Virus record (IMG/VR): IMGVR_UViG_3300021375_000007
Location: 64,001-128,000 of that record
DNA: 64,000 bases
From: a virus
Strand: one strand, 5' to 3'
The position numbers and the translations under genes were made by a program. Below are positions 1,648 to 63,978 of this stretch, piece after piece; position 1 is the first letter of the stretch, and each line of letters starts with the position of its first letter. The notes under the pieces were generated by a model. That model ran no database searches. It was not told the DNA's origin and saw only the letters and a program-made list of their open reading frames with translations.

Positions 1648-4005
1648 CTAAATTGGTGAATCATTATTATATGCAGCTGCGATGCTACCAAATACACTAT
1701 CATTATCAAATGTAACATTTGTTATGCTGGAACTTATAAATACATTGACTTCACAAGATCTTCCTACATTACTATTTGGTATTAATACATTTGTAATAGG
1801 TCCTACGGCGGCTGAACTATTATTGTATGGAGCTGTCTTAAGTTCCATATTTAATGTTACTGAACCTGTATATCCTGGTTTCTGCCCACCGGTACCATCA
1901 AACACCAACATAACACCACCCGCTTCATCGGGATCATCTCTAAAATATGATGCACTATTCGACTGCCCTACTTTAATAAGTGTTTCTGCAAAATTTGTCG
2001 CGGTTACTAATCCCTGATTACTTAGATGAAAATTAGAAGATGATATTTCCAATTTACCGCCTGATCCTGATATAAACTGATTATTGGCATTTCCTAAAAA
2101 GAATTTATCGGTAACTACTTCCAATCCTGCATTAGGACCGGCCGTACGGAATCGGAAATAACTTCCGGAATCTTGTACTAGCTCTAATCCTACTCCACCA
2201 TCTACGTAATCATTTGTTTCATTTGGTATTACCGATCCAGAGAACATCATCCATCCAGATCCTGATCCTGCAGATGCAGATGTAAATCCATTATATCCAA
2301 TTGATCGTATAAATCCCGAGTTCTGTCCTGACTGCTGAATACCTTCACCAACTCCCGAACCTATATATTGGGATCCCGTAATTAAATTACTATTTCCTTG
2401 TATATAAAGATTTTCTCCGGAGAATACTGCTCCATATATAAATGAAGTTAATGCGGCTGGCGTGCCTTGATAATCTAAATATTCAAATCTAAACGTTAGC
2501 GGTGTATTTAAATGCTGAGATGGTATTCGAATATCCATTCTTGCAAAATTAGGACTAAACCCAGTTTCAACGTTAGTTCTTAACGATATATCTGCAATTG
2601 TCCAACTTCCGCCACGCACTATAAAATATATAGTAGCTCTTTTAGTTTCATTCGATTCGAATTCAAATGTAGTATCTTGATATGCCTGGGCAGGTGTCAC
2701 TGTTAATGGTGCATTTGGACTAGTTGATATTGACCCTATTAACGTACCATATATTCCGCCAGACTGGTAATCCGTACTTTCAATTGAAGTAGGTACATAA
2801 TCCATATCAGGTATTACCTGTGAGCCGCTTATATATACATCTAATCGCATTGAATCGGTATTACCAAATGAATCAGTAATATTAGCTGGGCCAGGAAATA
2901 CCGCGGTACTATAATGGCCAAATTCTAAAATATATTTAGTTCGCTTTTTTAATTCTGGCATATGGCCCGCGTCTGATAGCAGATTGAATGCAATAGCCTC
3001 TCCATTTGAATATGCCCCGGCCGGGGTTAATTCAGCACCACCCATTATATTGCTAGGTTCATATGCTACTGATGGACTGGCCATTCCACCAACACCACTT
3101 GCAGACCAATTATCAGTTATGTCTGGCAAATTAACAAATAATCCTGTTGATGGATCTGATGCACCAAATATTGGATTAACTGAGCTAGGTAATGAACCTG
3201 TAGTTAATTGTTCTTGCTGCTCTAATACCGTTAATCCTAAATCTATAAAGTTACCATATGAACCACCTGGCTTATAAGATGTTCTAATTGCATATACATC
3301 ACCTGTCGCAGGATCTAAATCCGATATTACAATTTGCGCAAAGCTCTGCGATTGTTGCGTATATACTGTTGCTTGAGGTAATATAAAACTTGATGTGAAA
3401 TTTGTCGTAGGTACAGGCGATTGGCCGGTCGGTCCGAAAGATGTAAATGAGTATGGAGCAAATTGCGCGGTAGGATCTACTGGCGTCAAATCAATTCCAT
3501 AAAATACAAATCCAGCGCTGGTATTAGTTAGTATGGCATTGCAAGTAGTACTATTAGTAATGCTTGTTATTTGAAACTGAAACGAACCGCTTAATTGAGT
3601 TTGGCCGGTTGTAGCTAATTCACCAGTGGCCACTGTCATTGGAATAGTTAGCTCAGCTATATTAAAAATTTTGTTAGTACCGTCATCATGTACTACCATG
3701 CCAGCTGGGGCTTCTACATAAGGATCTACAACGGTAACGGTACCTCCGACCATTGATGCTGATAATGCAAATCCTGTAAATGTTAATATACTACTATATG
3801 GCGCACTAATATTGCCTTCTTCGCCACTTGCATTTAACTGAACATTATTAGGATTATTTTGTGAATTATTTGAATTACCACCGCCGCTATTTCCAGGAGA
3901 ATTATTTCGCTCGCCAATAAATACAGTTCCACCGCCACCGCCGCCTTCTTCTATCGGACCTTGTGGTGGCAGGAGATTACGAAATAACAGAGGATCATTT
4001 GGCAT
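1648..4005 (-). CDS. Large putative virion structural protein
   Basis: 785 aa, repeated TGS/SGS motifs shared with neighbouring baseplate proteins; AAAGGA just upstream of ATG. Confidence 0.5.
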   Translation of the reverse strand: MPNDPLLFRNLLPPQGPIEEGGGGGGTVFIGERNNSPGNSGGGNSNNSQNNPNNVQLNASGEEGNISAPYSSILTFTGFALSASMVGGTVTVVDPYVEAPAGMVVHDDGTNKIFNIAELTIPMTVATGELATTGQTQLSGSFQFQITSITNSTTCNAILTNTSAGFVFYGIDLTPVDPTAQFAPYSFTSFGPTGQSPVPTTNFTSSFILPQATVYTQQSQSFAQIVISDLDPATGDVYAIRTSYKPGGSYGNFIDLGLTVLEQQEQLTTGSLPSSVNPIFGASDPSTGLFVNLPDITDNWSASGVGGMASPSVAYEPSNIMGGAELTPAGAYSNGEAIAFNLLSDAGHMPELKKRTKYILEFGHYSTAVFPGPANITDSFGNTDSMRLDVYISGSQVIPDMDYVPTSIESTDYQSGGIYGTLIGSISTSPNAPLTVTPAQAYQDTTFEFESNETKRATIYFIVRGGSWTIADISLRTNVETGFSPNFARMDIRIPSQHLNTPLTFRFEYLDYQGTPAALTSFIYGAVFSGENLYIQGNSNLITGSQYIGSGVGEGIQQSGQNSGFIRSIGYNGFTSASAGSGSGWMMFSGSVIPNETNDYVDGGVGLELVQDSGSYFRFRTAGPNAGLEVVTDKFFLGNANNQFISGSGGKLEISSSNFHLSNQGLVTATNFAETLIKVGQSNSASYFRDDPDEAGGVMLVFDGTGGQKPGYTGSVTLNMELKTAPYNNSSAAVGPITNVLIPNSNVGRSCEVNVFISSSITNVTFDNDSVFGSIAAAYNNDSPI

Positions 4006-24731: not shown

Positions 24732-24740
24732 TATAAATAT
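24732..24740 (-). promoter_or_regulatory. Late-type motif ATATTTATA (representative copy)
   Basis: ATATTTAT recurs upstream of at least 15 starts. Confidence 0.6.
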
Positions 24741-38246: not shown

Positions 38247-38269
38247 CGATTATAAATATGCCAAGCATA

Positions 38270-46403: not shown

Positions 46404-46447
46404 TTTAATTATTTATTAATGGTTATTACTTAATTATCTTAACACTA

Positions 46448-46478
46448 TAAATATGGGAAATAAATCAACGCGATCCTA
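46448..46478 (-). promoter_or_regulatory. Early promoter (duplicate of 60667-60697)
   Basis: TAG GATCGCGT..(N20) CATATTTA. Confidence 0.7.
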
Positions 46479-60624: not shown

Positions 60625-60666
60625 GTGATATAATTTAATGGTTATTACTTAATTATCTTAACACTA

Positions 60667-60697
60667 TAAATATGGCAAATAAATCAACGCGATCCAA
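60667..60697 (-). promoter_or_regulatory. Early promoter
   Basis: TTG GATCGCGT..(N20) CATATTTA. Confidence 0.7.
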
Positions 60698-62943: not shown

Positions 62944-63306
62944 TTAGTCCTTTGGGTTATATTGTGTATACGTTAATAAAATTTCTTCGCCTTCCTTGAT
63001 ATCATTCAAAGTATGTAACTGCCATTCTACTGGGGTTACTGTTATGTCTTGAAGCAATCTGCAGTTAGGTGTTTCATTATGATTTATGAATCCACCCAAT
63101 GGCGTACGTACTATTTTATGACTACCACCGGACATATCAGGCACAGACTCGAAATCTAAATAATAATGCGTAACACCTAAACATACACCTTCTGATATAT
63201 CTTGTGTAGCAAATACTCCTAATTCTCTTCTACCTGTTTTAGATGATAAGCTGGAATCTTTAATAGTAAGGCTACTGGGTAATGGTCTGTAATGTTCTTT
63301 GCTCAT
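62944..63306 (-). CDS. SET-domain protein
   Basis: LGVFATQDI, FINHNETPNC, DIKEGEEILLTY; start reassigned to MSKEHY. Confidence 0.85.
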   Translation of the reverse strand: MSKEHYRPLPSSLTIKDSSLSSKTGRRELGVFATQDISEGVCLGVTHYYLDFESVPDMSGGSHKIVRTPLGGFINHNETPNCRLLQDITVTPVEWQLHTLNDIKEGEEILLTYTQYNPKD

Positions 63307-63307
63307 T

Positions 63308-63724
63308 TTATTTGTTTTTGGTACACCATTTAATATATGAAAGTAAACACGTATTACCAAATTTGCGATACGCTTTTTTATCTAACTCTAATCCTAACTG
63401 CTCTGCCAATTTCTCACCTTCATCCCAGGCATTGAATTCTTCACGAACTGTATCAACTCGGTAATTGTTATATCCGGATGCGTTCTCTGATACCAATGCG
63501 GCTGTTATGCCCGGATACCGGCACATAAAGGTAGCTGGATTAGATCGTATAATCATATGGCCACATTCATGTAGTAATGTCCAATATAATTTCTTACCAC
63601 GTGTTTGGTAATTGATATTGATACATTTTGAAAAATGATCGGCTTCATTGCGTCTAGAATTAAGATTTACCATCCATCCAGATTCATATATGTAATCGAT
63701 TATTCTTGCGATTCGTTCTTTCAT
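63308..63724 (-). CDS. HExxH zincin-like protein
   Basis: TLLHECGH...EEFNAW. Confidence 0.6.
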   Translation of the reverse strand: MKERIARIIDYIYESGWMVNLNSRRNEADHFSKCININYQTRGKKLYWTLLHECGHMIIRSNPATFMCRYPGITAALVSENASGYNNYRVDTVREEFNAWDEGEKLAEQLGLELDKKAYRKFGNTCLLSYIKWCTKNK

Positions 63725-63749
63725 AACTGTTGTTTAATACCTCTTACCA

Positions 63750-63968
63750 CCCGAGGCTTTTACGACATGGCCTCTTTTTACCGTTAGCTCAGGGTGCCTA
63801 TTAGGCAGCCATTGCTAGTTCAACTTGTTCGCCAGTTGTGCGTATGATCTCCCAATGCTCCTTTCTTGCTGTCAAAACCAGGCACCCCCATATTATTAAT
63901 ACTCTAGTGGAGGTGGAGGGAATCGAACCCTCGTCCAAACAAGCGGCTGACATTAGTCAGACGATCAA
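63750..63968 (-). ncRNA. ssrA: Circularly permuted (two-piece) tmRNA; outer ends approximate
   Basis: T-arm and acceptor 3' strand (63936-63908) precede the 5' strand GGGGGTG (63889); G3-U70 pair; tag ORF GEQVELAMAA* at 63833-63801. Confidence 0.88.
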
Positions 63969-63969
63969 T

Positions 63970-63978
63970 TATAAATAT
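63970..63978 (-). promoter_or_regulatory. Late-type motif ATATTTATA upstream of tmRNA
   Basis: Same motif as upstream of structural genes. Confidence 0.6.

What the first reader, a model, noticed from the sequence alone, without database searches (positions are those of the whole stretch)
63750..63968. Phage-encoded circularly permuted, minimised two-piece tmRNA with a Bacteroidota-type tag
Seen (minus strand): GGAC-GAGGG-TTCGATT-CCCTC-CACCTCC-A (T-arm plus acceptor 3' strand, 63936-63908) comes first, then an 18-nt AT-rich spacer, then GGGGGTG-CCTGGTTTTGAC-AGCAAG (5' strand, G1 at 63889). The acceptor stem pairs 7/7 with the G3-U70 alanine determinant; CCA is not encoded (CTA). The pieces can also pair through AGCAAG/CTTGTT and TGATC/GATCA. 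The resume context ACAACT|GGC opens GEQVELAMAA-TAA-TAG, with a TGCCTA-A-TAGGCA inverted repeat over the stop. Only 56 nt separate G1 from the resume codon, so pk1 appears absent. Known: permuted ssrA occurs in alphaproteobacteria, marine picocyanobacteria and some betaproteobacteria; Bacteroidota ssrA is one-piece with GE..YALAA-type tags. Inference: an independent permutation in a phage lineage, expressed late (ATATTTATA immediately upstream). It may keep ribosome rescue running when host RNAs are cut by anti-phage nucleases.
Basis: partly seen in the sequence, partly recalled or inferred. Interest (0 to 1): 0.88.

Follow-up and report, generated by a model that had tools for sequence, protein, structure and literature searches.

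The report
Minimal two-piece tmRNA in marine phage
This uncultured T4-like phage carries a real, back-to-front (two-piece) gene for tmRNA, the RNA that frees stalled ribosomes. It belongs to a large, strongly conserved phage family that is unusually small, lacks the first pseudoknot and carries a Bacteroidia-style degradation tag, so it is a new variant of a known thing rather than a new kind.

Summary
ARAGORN calls a permuted tmRNA (tag GEQVELAMAA) and Rfam's generic permuted model RF04321 matches full length (70.3 bits, cut-off 47).

It is not an artefact. The same gene sits on 81 IMG/VR phage contigs (62 distinct sequences). An unbiased alignment of 57 of them shows compensatory changes in 28 of 47 pairs, covering every helix and a pseudoknot 3' of the tag.

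Only 9-15 nt separate the end of helix 2 from the resume codon, so no family member has room for PK1. None of the sampled members reaches the alpha, beta or cyano clade models, whereas other phage two-piece tmRNAs do.

The G-E tag start, the UAACU|GGC resume context and the flanks of the tRNA-like domain resemble one-piece Bacteroidia tmRNAs. A conserved ATATTTATA promoter-like motif sits just upstream.

Novelty is limited:
- Phage two-piece tmRNAs are published (Melnitz, pelagimyophages, cyanophages).
- G-tagged permuted tmRNAs are already auto-annotated in Chryseobacterium phage MA9V-3 and in crAss-like phages.
- This scan has reported the same family on other DNA.

An independent origin of the permutation, late expression and the anti-nuclease role remain unproven. 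The host is inferred, not shown.

The parts
63970..63978 (-). ATATTTATA promoter-like motif, ending 2 nt before the first helix of the acceptor piece
   Evidence: All 12 copies in the window are on the coding strand, and 9 of the other 11 lie 4-45 nt before an ORF start. In the whole record the strand split is 27:2. ATATTTAT lies 41-44 nt before the T-arm, mostly 41-42, in 46 of 57 family sequences.
63908..63967 (-). Acceptor piece. Outer helix 5' strand UGAUC 63967-63963. P2b 5' strand CUAAUGU 63956-63950. CC 63946-63945. P2a 5' strand CUUGUUUG 63943-63936. T-arm GAGGG/UUCGAUU/CCCUC 63932-63916. Acceptor 3' strand CACCUCC 63915-63909. Discriminator A 63908.
   Evidence: Rfam RF04321 alignment, RNAalifold on A1 and pair counts on A2. 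T-arm pairs are GC/CG/AU and AU/CG/UA/GC. The discriminator A is invariant.
63890..63907 (-). Intervening segment, 18 nt and A/T-rich, removed on maturation. It begins CUA where CCA would be.
   Evidence: Sequence. In the family the three bases after A73 are CUA 37, CAA 15, CCA 6, other 3. The segment's length and content vary, and L175 holds a tRNA-Ala there.
63834..63889 (-). 5' part of the coding piece. Acceptor 5' strand GGGGGUG 63889-63883. D-loop analogue 63882-63872. P2a 3' strand CAGCAAG 63871-63865. GG 63861-63860. P2b 3' strand GCAUUGG 63858-63852. Outer helix 3' strand GAUCA 63849-63845. 11-nt single-stranded linker UACGCACAACU 63844-63834. No PK1.
   Evidence: Acceptor pair 5:68 covaries (CG 30, UA 22, GC 3) and G3-U70 is kept in 56/56. 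P2 helices pair in 84-100% of cells with compensatory changes. G1-to-resume is 56-61 nt in the family, against 80-88 nt in most of the other phage two-piece forms.
63798..63833 (-). Tag reading frame: GGC resume codon, GEQVELAMAA, then UAA UAG
   Evidence: ARAGORN. The same or a near-identical tag (GEQVE[L/M]AMAA, GESVE..) occurs on 81 contigs. The last two Ala codons, which lie outside the search pattern, vary only at third positions.
63795..63807 (-). Helix-5-like hairpin UGCC/GGCA with the stop codon in its loop
   Evidence: 96.8% of cells pair. The closing pair is CG 32, UA 15, GC 3.
63747..63784 (-). H-type pseudoknot 3' of the tag. Stem 1 is ACGGU 63784-63780 with GUCGU 63766-63762. Stem 2 is GAGGC 63774-63770 with GCCUC 63757-63753. 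The conserved GGNGG tail follows. The 3' end of the coding piece is not defined.
   Evidence: Stem 1 pairs in 98.6-100% of cells, and its fifth pair is CG 28, UG 18, UA 9. All five pairs of stem 2 show compensatory changes. No terminator follows in the window, whereas some relatives have one.

Best explanation
This is a working two-piece tmRNA gene carried by a T4-like phage. One precursor is most likely transcribed from the phage promoter-like motif ATATTTATA.

Proposed maturation (inferred):
1. The precursor folds so that the acceptor stem closes over the 18-nt spacer.
2. Host RNase P cuts 5' of G1.
3. The 3' end of the acceptor piece is trimmed back.
4. The host CCA-adding enzyme completes the end.

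The roughly 60-nt acceptor piece and the roughly 140-nt coding piece stay together through the 7-bp acceptor stem and about 21 bp of helix 2.

Proposed action (inferred):
1. Host AlaRS charges the RNA, using G3-U70 and A73.
2. Host SmpB and EF-Tu bring it to stalled ribosomes.
3. Translation resumes at GGC in the context UAACU|GGC, adds GEQVELAMAA and stops at the UAA held in the helix-5 loop.
4. The ribosome is released and the tagged protein goes to host proteases.

The RNA does this without PK1. A long helix 2 runs almost to the resume codon, and the only pseudoknot lies 3' of the tag.

Shown: the gene, its conservation, its structure and the coding constraint on the tag. Inferred: transcription start, processing, charging, tagging, timing and host.
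For: Detection:
- ARAGORN and Rfam both call a permuted tmRNA.
- 81 phage contigs with 62 distinct sequences carry the same gene in the same permuted order.

Structure:
- Every helix is supported by covariation on an unfitted alignment: 94.3% paired, 28/47 pairs with double changes, 0/500 shuffles as good.
- The alanine identity pair G3-U70 is invariant. So is A73.

Coding constraint:
- The tag frame is always open, ends in A[L/M]AA, and varies at third positions in the two terminal Ala codons.
- The stop codon always lies in the hairpin loop.

Host-like features:
- The resume context UAACU|GGCGAA is the same as in sampled one-piece Bacteroidia tmRNAs (L340, L349).
- The phage has no SmpB. This fits use of the host's protein, as in other phage tmRNAs.

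Promoter motif.

Background on PK1:
- PK1 can be replaced by a hairpin in E. coli (Tanner 2006, as reviewed in PMC3968760).
Against: - There are no expression, processing, charging or tagging data.
- PK1 is present in nearly all tag-encoding tmRNAs (PMC1168896), and two-piece forms are described as keeping PK1 and PK2 (PMC3985003). Function without PK1 is therefore an extrapolation.
- CCA is not encoded here, although both tRNA genes of the same phage encode it.
- The 3' end of the coding piece is undefined, because no terminator follows in this window.
- The single-sequence fold is no better than shuffles (z 0.17).
- The host is not established. The nearest isolate by capsid and SbcC proteins is reported on Microcystis.
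Confidence: 0.8

Rival explanations
1. Decoy rather than rescuer. The RNA binds host SmpB, AlaRS or stalled ribosomes but does not support tagging. It would thereby shut down or redirect host trans-translation, as proposed for the TLD-only tmRNA of mycobacteriophage DS6A.
For: - PK1 is missing and the molecule is very small.
- The phage has no SmpB of its own.
- A TLD-only molecule has been reported to inhibit tmRNA strongly (Mao 2009, cited in PMC4131195 and PMC11915505).
Against: - The tag frame, its alanine-rich hydrophobic C-terminus, the resume context and the stop-in-loop hairpin are all conserved. Variation in the terminal codons is synonymous. A decoy would not need any of these.
- Sister lineages keep different but equally degron-like tags (GKVINL..RLAA, GNVIDINKYVAKLEVAA).
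Confidence: 0.1
2. Origin rival A. The permutation arose independently in phages of Bacteroidota, from a captured one-piece Bacteroidia ssrA. That would make it a fourth bacterial-type origin of two-piece tmRNA.
For: - All five sampled family members (L190, L178, L077, L176, L175), and the window itself, miss the alpha, beta and cyano clade models, whereas other phage two-piece tmRNAs meet them.
- G-E tag starts were found only in Bacteroidota one-piece tmRNAs among those sampled.
- The resume context is identical to Bacteroidia tmRNAs.
- For 25 of 40 family members, the nearest non-family neighbour in the unselected TLD flanks is a G-tag tmRNA. G-tag tmRNAs make up only 15 of 163 comparison sequences.
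- 97 of 101 sampled Bacteroidota genomes have a one-piece tmRNA.
Against: - The comparison rests on about 35 informative bases, and best-hit identities are nearly equal across groups.
- The tag/pseudoknot part has no detectable relative anywhere.
- G-start tags also occur on phage tmRNAs that do meet the alpha model (L005) or the beta model (L037). Tags and TLD details may therefore simply adapt to the host after transfer.
Confidence: 0.45
3. Origin rival B. The family descends from an older permuted tmRNA that moves between aquatic T4-like phages. It then lost PK1 and adapted its tag and tRNA-like domain to Bacteroidota hosts.
For: - Two-piece tmRNAs are common in aquatic myophages and appear to cross host classes (PMC9004378).
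- At least 164 IMG/VR contigs share the same T-arm/acceptor layout, with many tag types and a graded series of G1-to-resume distances from 56 to 114 nt.
- Intermediates with G-tags and alpha- or beta-type bodies exist.
- The gene sits among small, freely shuffled genes.
Against: No clade model reaches its cut-off: beta_tmRNA scores 49.2 bits against 84 and matches the TLD only. The TLD flanks lean towards Bacteroidia forms.
Confidence: 0.45
4. Assembly rearrangement, a pseudogene, or an attachment-site fragment of host ssrA.
For: Fragments of ssrA are common in temperate phages that integrate there (PMC9004378).
Against: - The same order of parts is found on 81 independent contigs from many samples.
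- All parts are complete and covary.
- The genome is a T4-like lytic-type genome with a Gp23 capsid.
Confidence: 0.02

Closest known systems
Phage-encoded two-piece tmRNAs of aquatic T4-like myophages (OM43 phage Melnitz, pelagimyophages, cyanophages; PMC9004378)
   Same: A circularly permuted ssrA carried by a large aquatic myophage, with no phage SmpB, sitting behind a phage promoter among small genes.
   Different: - Those are attributed to the alphaproteobacterial or cyanobacterial lineages.
- Their tags start with Ala, not Gly-Glu.
- Their G1-to-resume distance is 63-88 nt, against 56-61 nt here.
- No glutamine riboswitch was detected here.
[quoted passage not shown]
   Same: Full-length match to RF04321 above its cut-off (70.3 against 47 bits). 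The tRNA-like domain and helix-2 layout are the same.
   Different: [quoted passage not shown] The clade models are not met: the best is beta_tmRNA at 49.2 bits against 84, covering model positions 81-162 of 331 only.
One-piece tmRNA of Bacteroidia (tags GENNYALAA, GEYNYALAA, GEENSFALAA)
   Same: - A GGC-GAA start of the tag and the UAACU|GGC resume context.
- The UUUGACAGC and UGUUUGGAC junctions of the tRNA-like domain.
- An identical T-arm/acceptor 29-mer in some Bacteroidota.
   Different: - Those are one piece of 350-415 nt.
- Their resume codon lies at position 90-98, against 57 here.
- The middle of the tag differs (QVEL against NNY).
Permuted tmRNAs auto-annotated as 'tmRNA, SsrA' in Chryseobacterium phage MA9V-3 (PV245944) and crAss-like phages cr50_1, cr60_1, cr53_1
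   Same: Permuted order, G-start tags, a match to RF04321 only (cr60_1 does not reach it and rests on ARAGORN alone), and phages of Bacteroidota. MA9V-3 has a cultured host, and crAss-like phages are predicted to infect Bacteroidales.
   Different: - The tags differ (GNVIDINKYVAKLEVAA, GNNFVTDYTAIGA, GNTSYVMDYTRLAA).
- The spacers are longer.
- There is no sequence similarity outside the T-arm.
- The MA9V-3 paper does not mention the permutation (PMC13120357). A literature search on crAss-like phages and tmRNA turned up no paper about it.
Engineered E. coli tmRNAs with PK1 replaced or removed (Tanner et al. 2006; Wower et al. 2009, as reviewed or listed in PMC3968760)
   Same: A tag-encoding tmRNA with no pseudoknot between helix 2 and the resume codon.
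   Different: Those are laboratory constructs in a one-piece RNA. This is a natural, widespread form in which helix 2 itself is extended up to 9-15 nt from the resume codon.

Membership tests
tmRNA (any form) | tRNA-like domain: a 7-bp acceptor stem with G3-U70 and discriminator A, a T-arm with a GUUCGANNC-type loop, and no anticodon arm | tested here: met
   Sequence. G3-U70 is kept in 56/56 and acceptor pair 5:68 covaries. A73 is invariant. ARAGORN and Rfam agree.
tmRNA (any form) | An internal tag reading frame with no start codon, ending in a hydrophobic Ala-rich C-terminus, with the stop codon in the loop of helix 5 | tested here: met
   The tag is GEQVELAMAA followed by UAA UAG. The hairpin UGCC/GGCA holds UAA and covaries.
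tmRNA (any form) | Pseudoknot PK1 between helix 2 and the resume codon | tested here: not met
   Only 11 nt (9-15 nt in relatives) lie between the covarying outer helix and GGC. PK1 is typical but not universal (PMC1168896) and can be replaced in E. coli (PMC3968760).
tmRNA (any form) | Alanylation, SmpB binding and tagging activity | not testable with these tools
   No SmpB gene is present in the 153-kb record. Activity needs experiments.
Two-piece (circularly permuted) tmRNA, Rfam RF04321 | Gene order of acceptor piece, spacer, then coding piece, with a score at or above 47 bits | tested here: met
   70.3 bits, model positions 1-213 of 213. ARAGORN flags it as tmRNA*.
Two-piece (circularly permuted) tmRNA, Rfam RF04321 | Mature RNA actually consisting of two pieces | not testable with these tools
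   Inferred from the gene order. The variable spacer, which in L175 contains a whole tRNA-Ala gene, argues that the spacer is removed.
[quoted passage not shown] | A full-length match at the family's gathering score (50 / 84 / 70 bits) | tested here: not met
   The best match is beta_tmRNA at 49.2 bits, covering the tRNA-like domain only. Five family members also gave only RF04321, whereas control phage tmRNAs reached alpha (L005), beta (L016, L042, L009, L037) or cyano (L027, L057).
Bacteroidia-type tmRNA tag | Resume codon GGN (Gly), Glu second, and a C-terminus of A-L/M-A-A | tested here: met
   Among 64 one-piece tmRNAs called in bacteria sharing the T-arm 29-mer, only three Bacteroidota ones start with G. 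More G-E tags appeared in the Bacteroidota sample. Not every member of the phylum has this tag: Chlorobia-like ones read ADDYSYAMAA.

The most novel reading that the evidence does not exclude
This family is a fourth, phage-born origin of two-piece tmRNA. It was made by permuting a captured one-piece Bacteroidia ssrA. At about 200 nt, it is also the smallest natural tag-encoding tmRNA. Its function without PK1 would show that an extended helix 2 alone can position the resume codon on the ribosome.
Probability: 0.35. Interest if true: 0.7.

Novelty: new variant of a known kind. Interest (0 to 1): 0.5.

Why it matters
tmRNA structure-function work treats PK1 as the one pseudoknot that matters. 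A natural, abundant and strongly selected tmRNA without it gives a ready-made minimal scaffold for asking what PK1 really does.

The family also shows that phages of Bacteroidota, from marine T4-like phages to gut crAss-like phages, carry two-piece tmRNAs, although 97 of 101 sampled Bacteroidota genomes have a one-piece form. That bears on how often the permutation arose and on why phages bring their own ribosome-rescue RNA.

There is a practical point as well. Contigs of this family can be mis-binned: one sits in an archaeal MAG. That could produce spurious 'archaeal' or 'Bacteroidota permuted' tmRNA records of the kind listed in PMC11915505.

Tried and rejected
- **Clade membership.** The alpha, beta and cyano Rfam models were tried at permissive thresholds. 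Only a partial beta match to the tRNA-like domain appeared, so clade membership is rejected.
- **Host from the T-arm/acceptor 29-mer.** The same 29-mer occurs in Acidimicrobiia, Chlamydiae, Rokubacteria and others, so it is not informative alone.
- **Ancestry from the tag/pseudoknot part.** An nhmmer profile found no relative among 228 other tmRNAs.
- **Nearest cultured phages by capsid.** Microcystis phage Mel-JY01 and Flavobacterium phage immuto carry no permuted tmRNA.
- **Cellulophaga phage Calle.** Its tmRNA is one-piece.
- **T9SS sorting-domain search as a host marker.** Nothing was found, and the controls were silent too, so it is uninformative.
- **Link to the nearby ClpS-like gene.** It is present in only 3 of 80 family loci, so it is not a conserved partnership.
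- **Single-sequence folding.** It is not better than shuffles and was not used.
- **Local hairpin CUGAC/GUCAG in the window's leader.** Relatives do not keep it (alignment). It was also the only 'terminator' that the scan called.
- **'Late' label for the motif.** Eight of the ORFs that follow the motif were searched against PHROGs, and only two had matches, an AAA ATPase and a protease. 'Late' is therefore not established. The genome-wide copies cluster in the 36-50 kb stretch that holds the capsid gene, which is only suggestive.
- **Two older papers on two-piece tmRNA** (PMC516066, PMC113835) are not held in the library.

Full report

Yes.
- The T-arm, acceptor 3' strand and discriminator lie at 63936-63908.
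- An 18-nt A/T-rich spacer lies at 63907-63890.
- G1 is at 63889.
- The resume codon GGC is at 63833, 56 nt after G1.
- The frame GEQVELAMAA-UAA-UAG follows.
- ATATTTATA lies at 63978-63970.

ARAGORN calls a permuted tmRNA with that tag. Rfam's tmRNA_permuted model (RF04321) matches over its full length at 70.3 bits, against a cut-off of 47 (E 1.8e-11).

The window is bases 64001-128000 of a 153-kb IMG/VR virus record that CheckV estimates to be 87% complete. The record has a T4-type Gp23 capsid gene, baseplate wedge genes and an SbcC-like nuclease.

**2. Is it a selected gene or an accident?**

Scans of IMG/VR for the T-arm/acceptor layout found at least 164 contigs with permuted tmRNAs of many tag types.

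A scan with the tag sequence found 81 contigs carrying this particular gene, giving 62 distinct 290-nt sequences at about 75% identity to the window.

Among 185,579 species genomes the only hit is a contig binned into a Nitrosopelagicus MAG. That is almost certainly a mis-binned phage contig.

RNAalifold on an unfitted MAFFT alignment recovered five elements, all with compensatory changes:
- the acceptor stem;
- the T-arm;
- helix 2a;
- a long helix 2b and an outer helix (UGAUC/GAUCA);
- the hairpin holding the stop codon.

On 57 sequences (alignment A2), my full structure, including a pseudoknot 3' of the tag, gave these counts:

| Measure | Value |
|---|---|
| Cells that form a standard pair | 94.3% |
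| Same, after column shuffles | 84.6% |
| Same, with partners slid by 1-3 columns | 40-50% |
| Pairs with changes on both sides | 28 of 47 |
| Shuffles as good as observed | 0 of 500 |

G3-U70 is kept in all 56 distinct rows. Acceptor pair 5:68 switches among C-G, U-A and G-C. Assembly artefact and pseudogene are therefore excluded.

**3. Anatomy**

- **Acceptor piece, about 63967-63908.** It holds the 5' strands of the outer helix, helix 2b and helix 2a, then the T-arm, the acceptor 3' strand and A73.
- **Spacer, 63907-63890.**
- **Coding piece, from G1 (63889).** It holds, in order:
  - the acceptor 5' strand;
  - the D-loop analogue;
  - the 3' strands of helix 2a, 2b and the outer helix, ending at 63845;
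  - an 11-nt single-stranded linker;
  - the tag frame (63833-63798);
  - a helix-5-like hairpin with UAA in its loop;
  - an H-type pseudoknot. Stem 1 is ACGGU/GUCGU and stem 2 is GAGGC/GCCUC (63784-63753).

No relative has more than 15 nt between the outer helix and the resume codon, so PK1 is absent from the whole family.

The G1-to-resume distance is 56-61 nt here. It is 63-70 nt in cyano-type phage forms and 80-88 nt in most of the other phage forms.

The mature RNA would total roughly 200 nt. The shortest complete tmRNA in a 2005 survey was 250 nt (PMC1168896).

CCA is not encoded. In the family the three bases after A73 are CUA 37, CAA 15 and CCA 6. Both tRNA genes of this phage do encode CCA.

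No terminator follows in the window, and the next ORF starts at 63724. Some relatives have an intrinsic terminator after the pseudoknot. A sister lineage (L092, L112; tag GKVINL..RLAA) has a terminator hairpin in place of the pseudoknot.

**4. Promoter motif**

ATATTTATA occurs 12 times in the window, always on the coding strand. Nine of the other 11 copies lie 4-45 nt upstream of an ORF start. In the whole record the strand split is 27 to 2.

In 46 of 57 family sequences ATATTTAT lies at a near-fixed 41-44 nt, mostly 41-42, before the T-arm. That places it a few bases before the first helix.

This supports a phage promoter whose transcript would begin about where the acceptor piece begins. 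Timing is not shown. Eight of the ORFs that follow the motif were searched, and only two had matches, an ATPase and a protease. Many copies do lie in the 36-50 kb stretch that holds the capsid gene.

**5. What it is not**

At permissive thresholds, the only clade-model match is beta_tmRNA at 49.2 bits, against a cut-off of 84, and it covers the tRNA-like domain only.

A panel of 20 contigs gave this split:
- Other phage two-piece tmRNAs reached alpha (L005), beta (L016, L042, L009, L037) or cyano (L027, L057).
- The five members of this family, its sister lineage and four other short forms (L026, L135, L155, L145) reached only the generic model. L021 and L078, which are not short (G1-to-resume 81-82 nt), also reached only the generic model.

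RF04321 was built to cover only the tRNA-like domain (PMC11915505). Its full-length match therefore shows 'permuted tmRNA', not membership of a described clade.

**6. Host and affinities**

- 97 of 101 sampled Bacteroidota genomes have a one-piece tmRNA.
- Among 64 one-piece tmRNAs called in bacteria that share the window's 29-nt T-arm/acceptor, only three Bacteroidota ones (Porphyromonadaceae, Cytophagaceae, Rikenellaceae) start their tag with Gly.
- G-E tags recur in the Bacteroidota sample, with the same UAACU|GGCGAA resume context as the phage. Chlorobia-like members read ADDYSYAMAA.
- In the part of the tRNA-like domain that was not used for selection, the nearest non-family neighbour is a G-tag tmRNA for 25 of 40 family members. 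Such sequences are only 15 of 163 comparators. Best-hit identities are close across groups, so this is suggestive only.
- The capsid's nearest isolates are Microcystis phage Mel-JY01 (60.6%), Flavobacterium phage immuto (57.3%) and Rhodothermus phage RM378 (37.6%). Mel-JY01 and immuto, the two that were searched, carry no permuted tmRNA.
- Permuted tmRNAs with G-start tags are present, and already annotated simply as tmRNA/SsrA, in cultured Chryseobacterium phage MA9V-3. They are also in crAss-like phages cr50_1 and cr60_1, and are detectable in cr53_1.

A Bacteroidota host is therefore likely but not shown.

**7. Origin**

The tag/pseudoknot part has no detectable relative among 228 other tmRNAs. 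G-tags also occur on phage tmRNAs with alpha-type (L005) or beta-type (L037) bodies.

I cannot decide between two origins and give them about equal weight:
- an independent permutation of a Bacteroidia ssrA;
- descent from an older phage-borne permuted gene, followed by host adaptation and loss of PK1.

**8. Function**

The conserved alanine identity elements, the open tag frame with a degron-like end, the synonymous variation in the terminal Ala codons, the stop-in-loop hairpin and the host-like resume context all argue for real trans-translation. It would use host SmpB, because the phage has none.

A decoy role, as proposed for the TLD-only RNA of phage DS6A (PMC4131195, PMC11915505), would not need the tag features.

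Published work shows that E. coli tmRNA still tags with PK1 replaced by a hairpin (Tanner 2006, reviewed in PMC3968760). The same review lists a 2009 paper by Wower et al. whose title reports tagging by tmRNA lacking PK1. A PK1-less natural form is therefore plausible.

**9. What is known already**

- Phage two-piece tmRNAs are published. Melnitz and relatives are described, and 53 of 133 unique phage tmRNAs in isolate genomes were two-piece by ARAGORN (PMC9004378).
- The 2025 tmRNA database lists 48 permuted instances in Bacteroidota genomes and 79 phage sequences, without discussing a Bacteroidota-phage lineage (PMC11915505).
- The MA9V-3 paper does not mention the permutation.
- I found no paper describing this family or a natural PK1-less two-piece tmRNA.
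- This scan has reported the same family on other DNA several times. I tested one of those notes' leads, the crAss-like phages, and it held.

**10. Verdict**

The finding is real and well supported, but it is a new variant of a known kind. Interest is moderate.

Noticed in passing
L175:3480-3844 (-): In one family member the spacer between the acceptor and coding pieces contains a complete tRNA-Ala(UGC) gene (3674-3748). One precursor would therefore yield three RNAs.
   Followed up: partly
L176, L213, L214, L226 (tmRNA spacers): Four relatives have a spacer about 70-80 nt longer, made of A/T-rich inverted repeats (TATATTCA..TAGATATAAT). It looks like a small palindromic insert in the discarded segment.
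   Followed up: no
L092:461-742, L112:2327-2606: A sister lineage has the same tRNA-like domain and long helix 2. Its tag is GKVINL(FS/SQ)APVRLAA, and an intrinsic-terminator hairpin directly after the tag replaces the pseudoknot. This makes it even smaller. In L112 the hairpin also scores as Rfam DUF805b.
   Followed up: partly
L239 (CALBOT010000027.1): The only species-genome hit for this phage tmRNA is a 15-kb contig binned into a Candidatus Nitrosopelagicus (archaeal) MAG. It is probably a mis-binned phage contig. This is the kind of mis-binning artefact that PMC11915505 raises as a possible explanation for its 'archaeal' tmRNA calls.
   Followed up: partly
about 1 kb beyond the window end (G000:C1:128966-129118, minus strand; L001:2585-2833): An 82-aa ClpS-like Clp-protease adaptor (Pfam ClpS, 30.9 bits) lies about 1 kb upstream of the tmRNA. 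The linkage is seen in only 3 of 80 related loci.
   Followed up: partly
window 62944-63360 (-) and 63308-63724 (-): Directly downstream of the tmRNA lie two ORFs. One is a 138-aa ORF containing HECGH, with only a sub-threshold Transglut_core match and no relative in 80 related loci. The other is a 138-aa ORF with a SET domain (Pfam 32.8 bits).
   Followed up: partly
window, 12 sites (for example 60665-60673, 46446-46454, 38251-38259, 24732-24740), and 29 sites in the whole record: ATATTTATA is a strand-specific motif (27:2) lying mostly 4-45 nt before ORF starts, so it is a candidate phage promoter. Two copies (60673 and 46454) share a further 35-40 nt of near-identical downstream leader.
   Followed up: partly
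L382 (cr50_1), L383 (cr60_1), L384 (cr53_1): Human-gut crAss-like phages (Suoliviridae) carry permuted tmRNAs with G-start tags (GNNFVTDYTAIGA, GNTSYVMDYTRLAA). In cr53_1 the gene is not annotated. In cr60_1 a RAGATH-20 RNA (122 bits) lies about 200 nt upstream of the tmRNA.
   Followed up: partly
L005, L025, L037, L061: Some phage two-piece tmRNAs meet the alpha or beta clade models and keep a PK1-length spacer, yet ARAGORN calls them with Gly-start tags (GNDYELQMAA, GTYNAPLALAA). They may be intermediates or host-adapted transfers.
   Followed up: no
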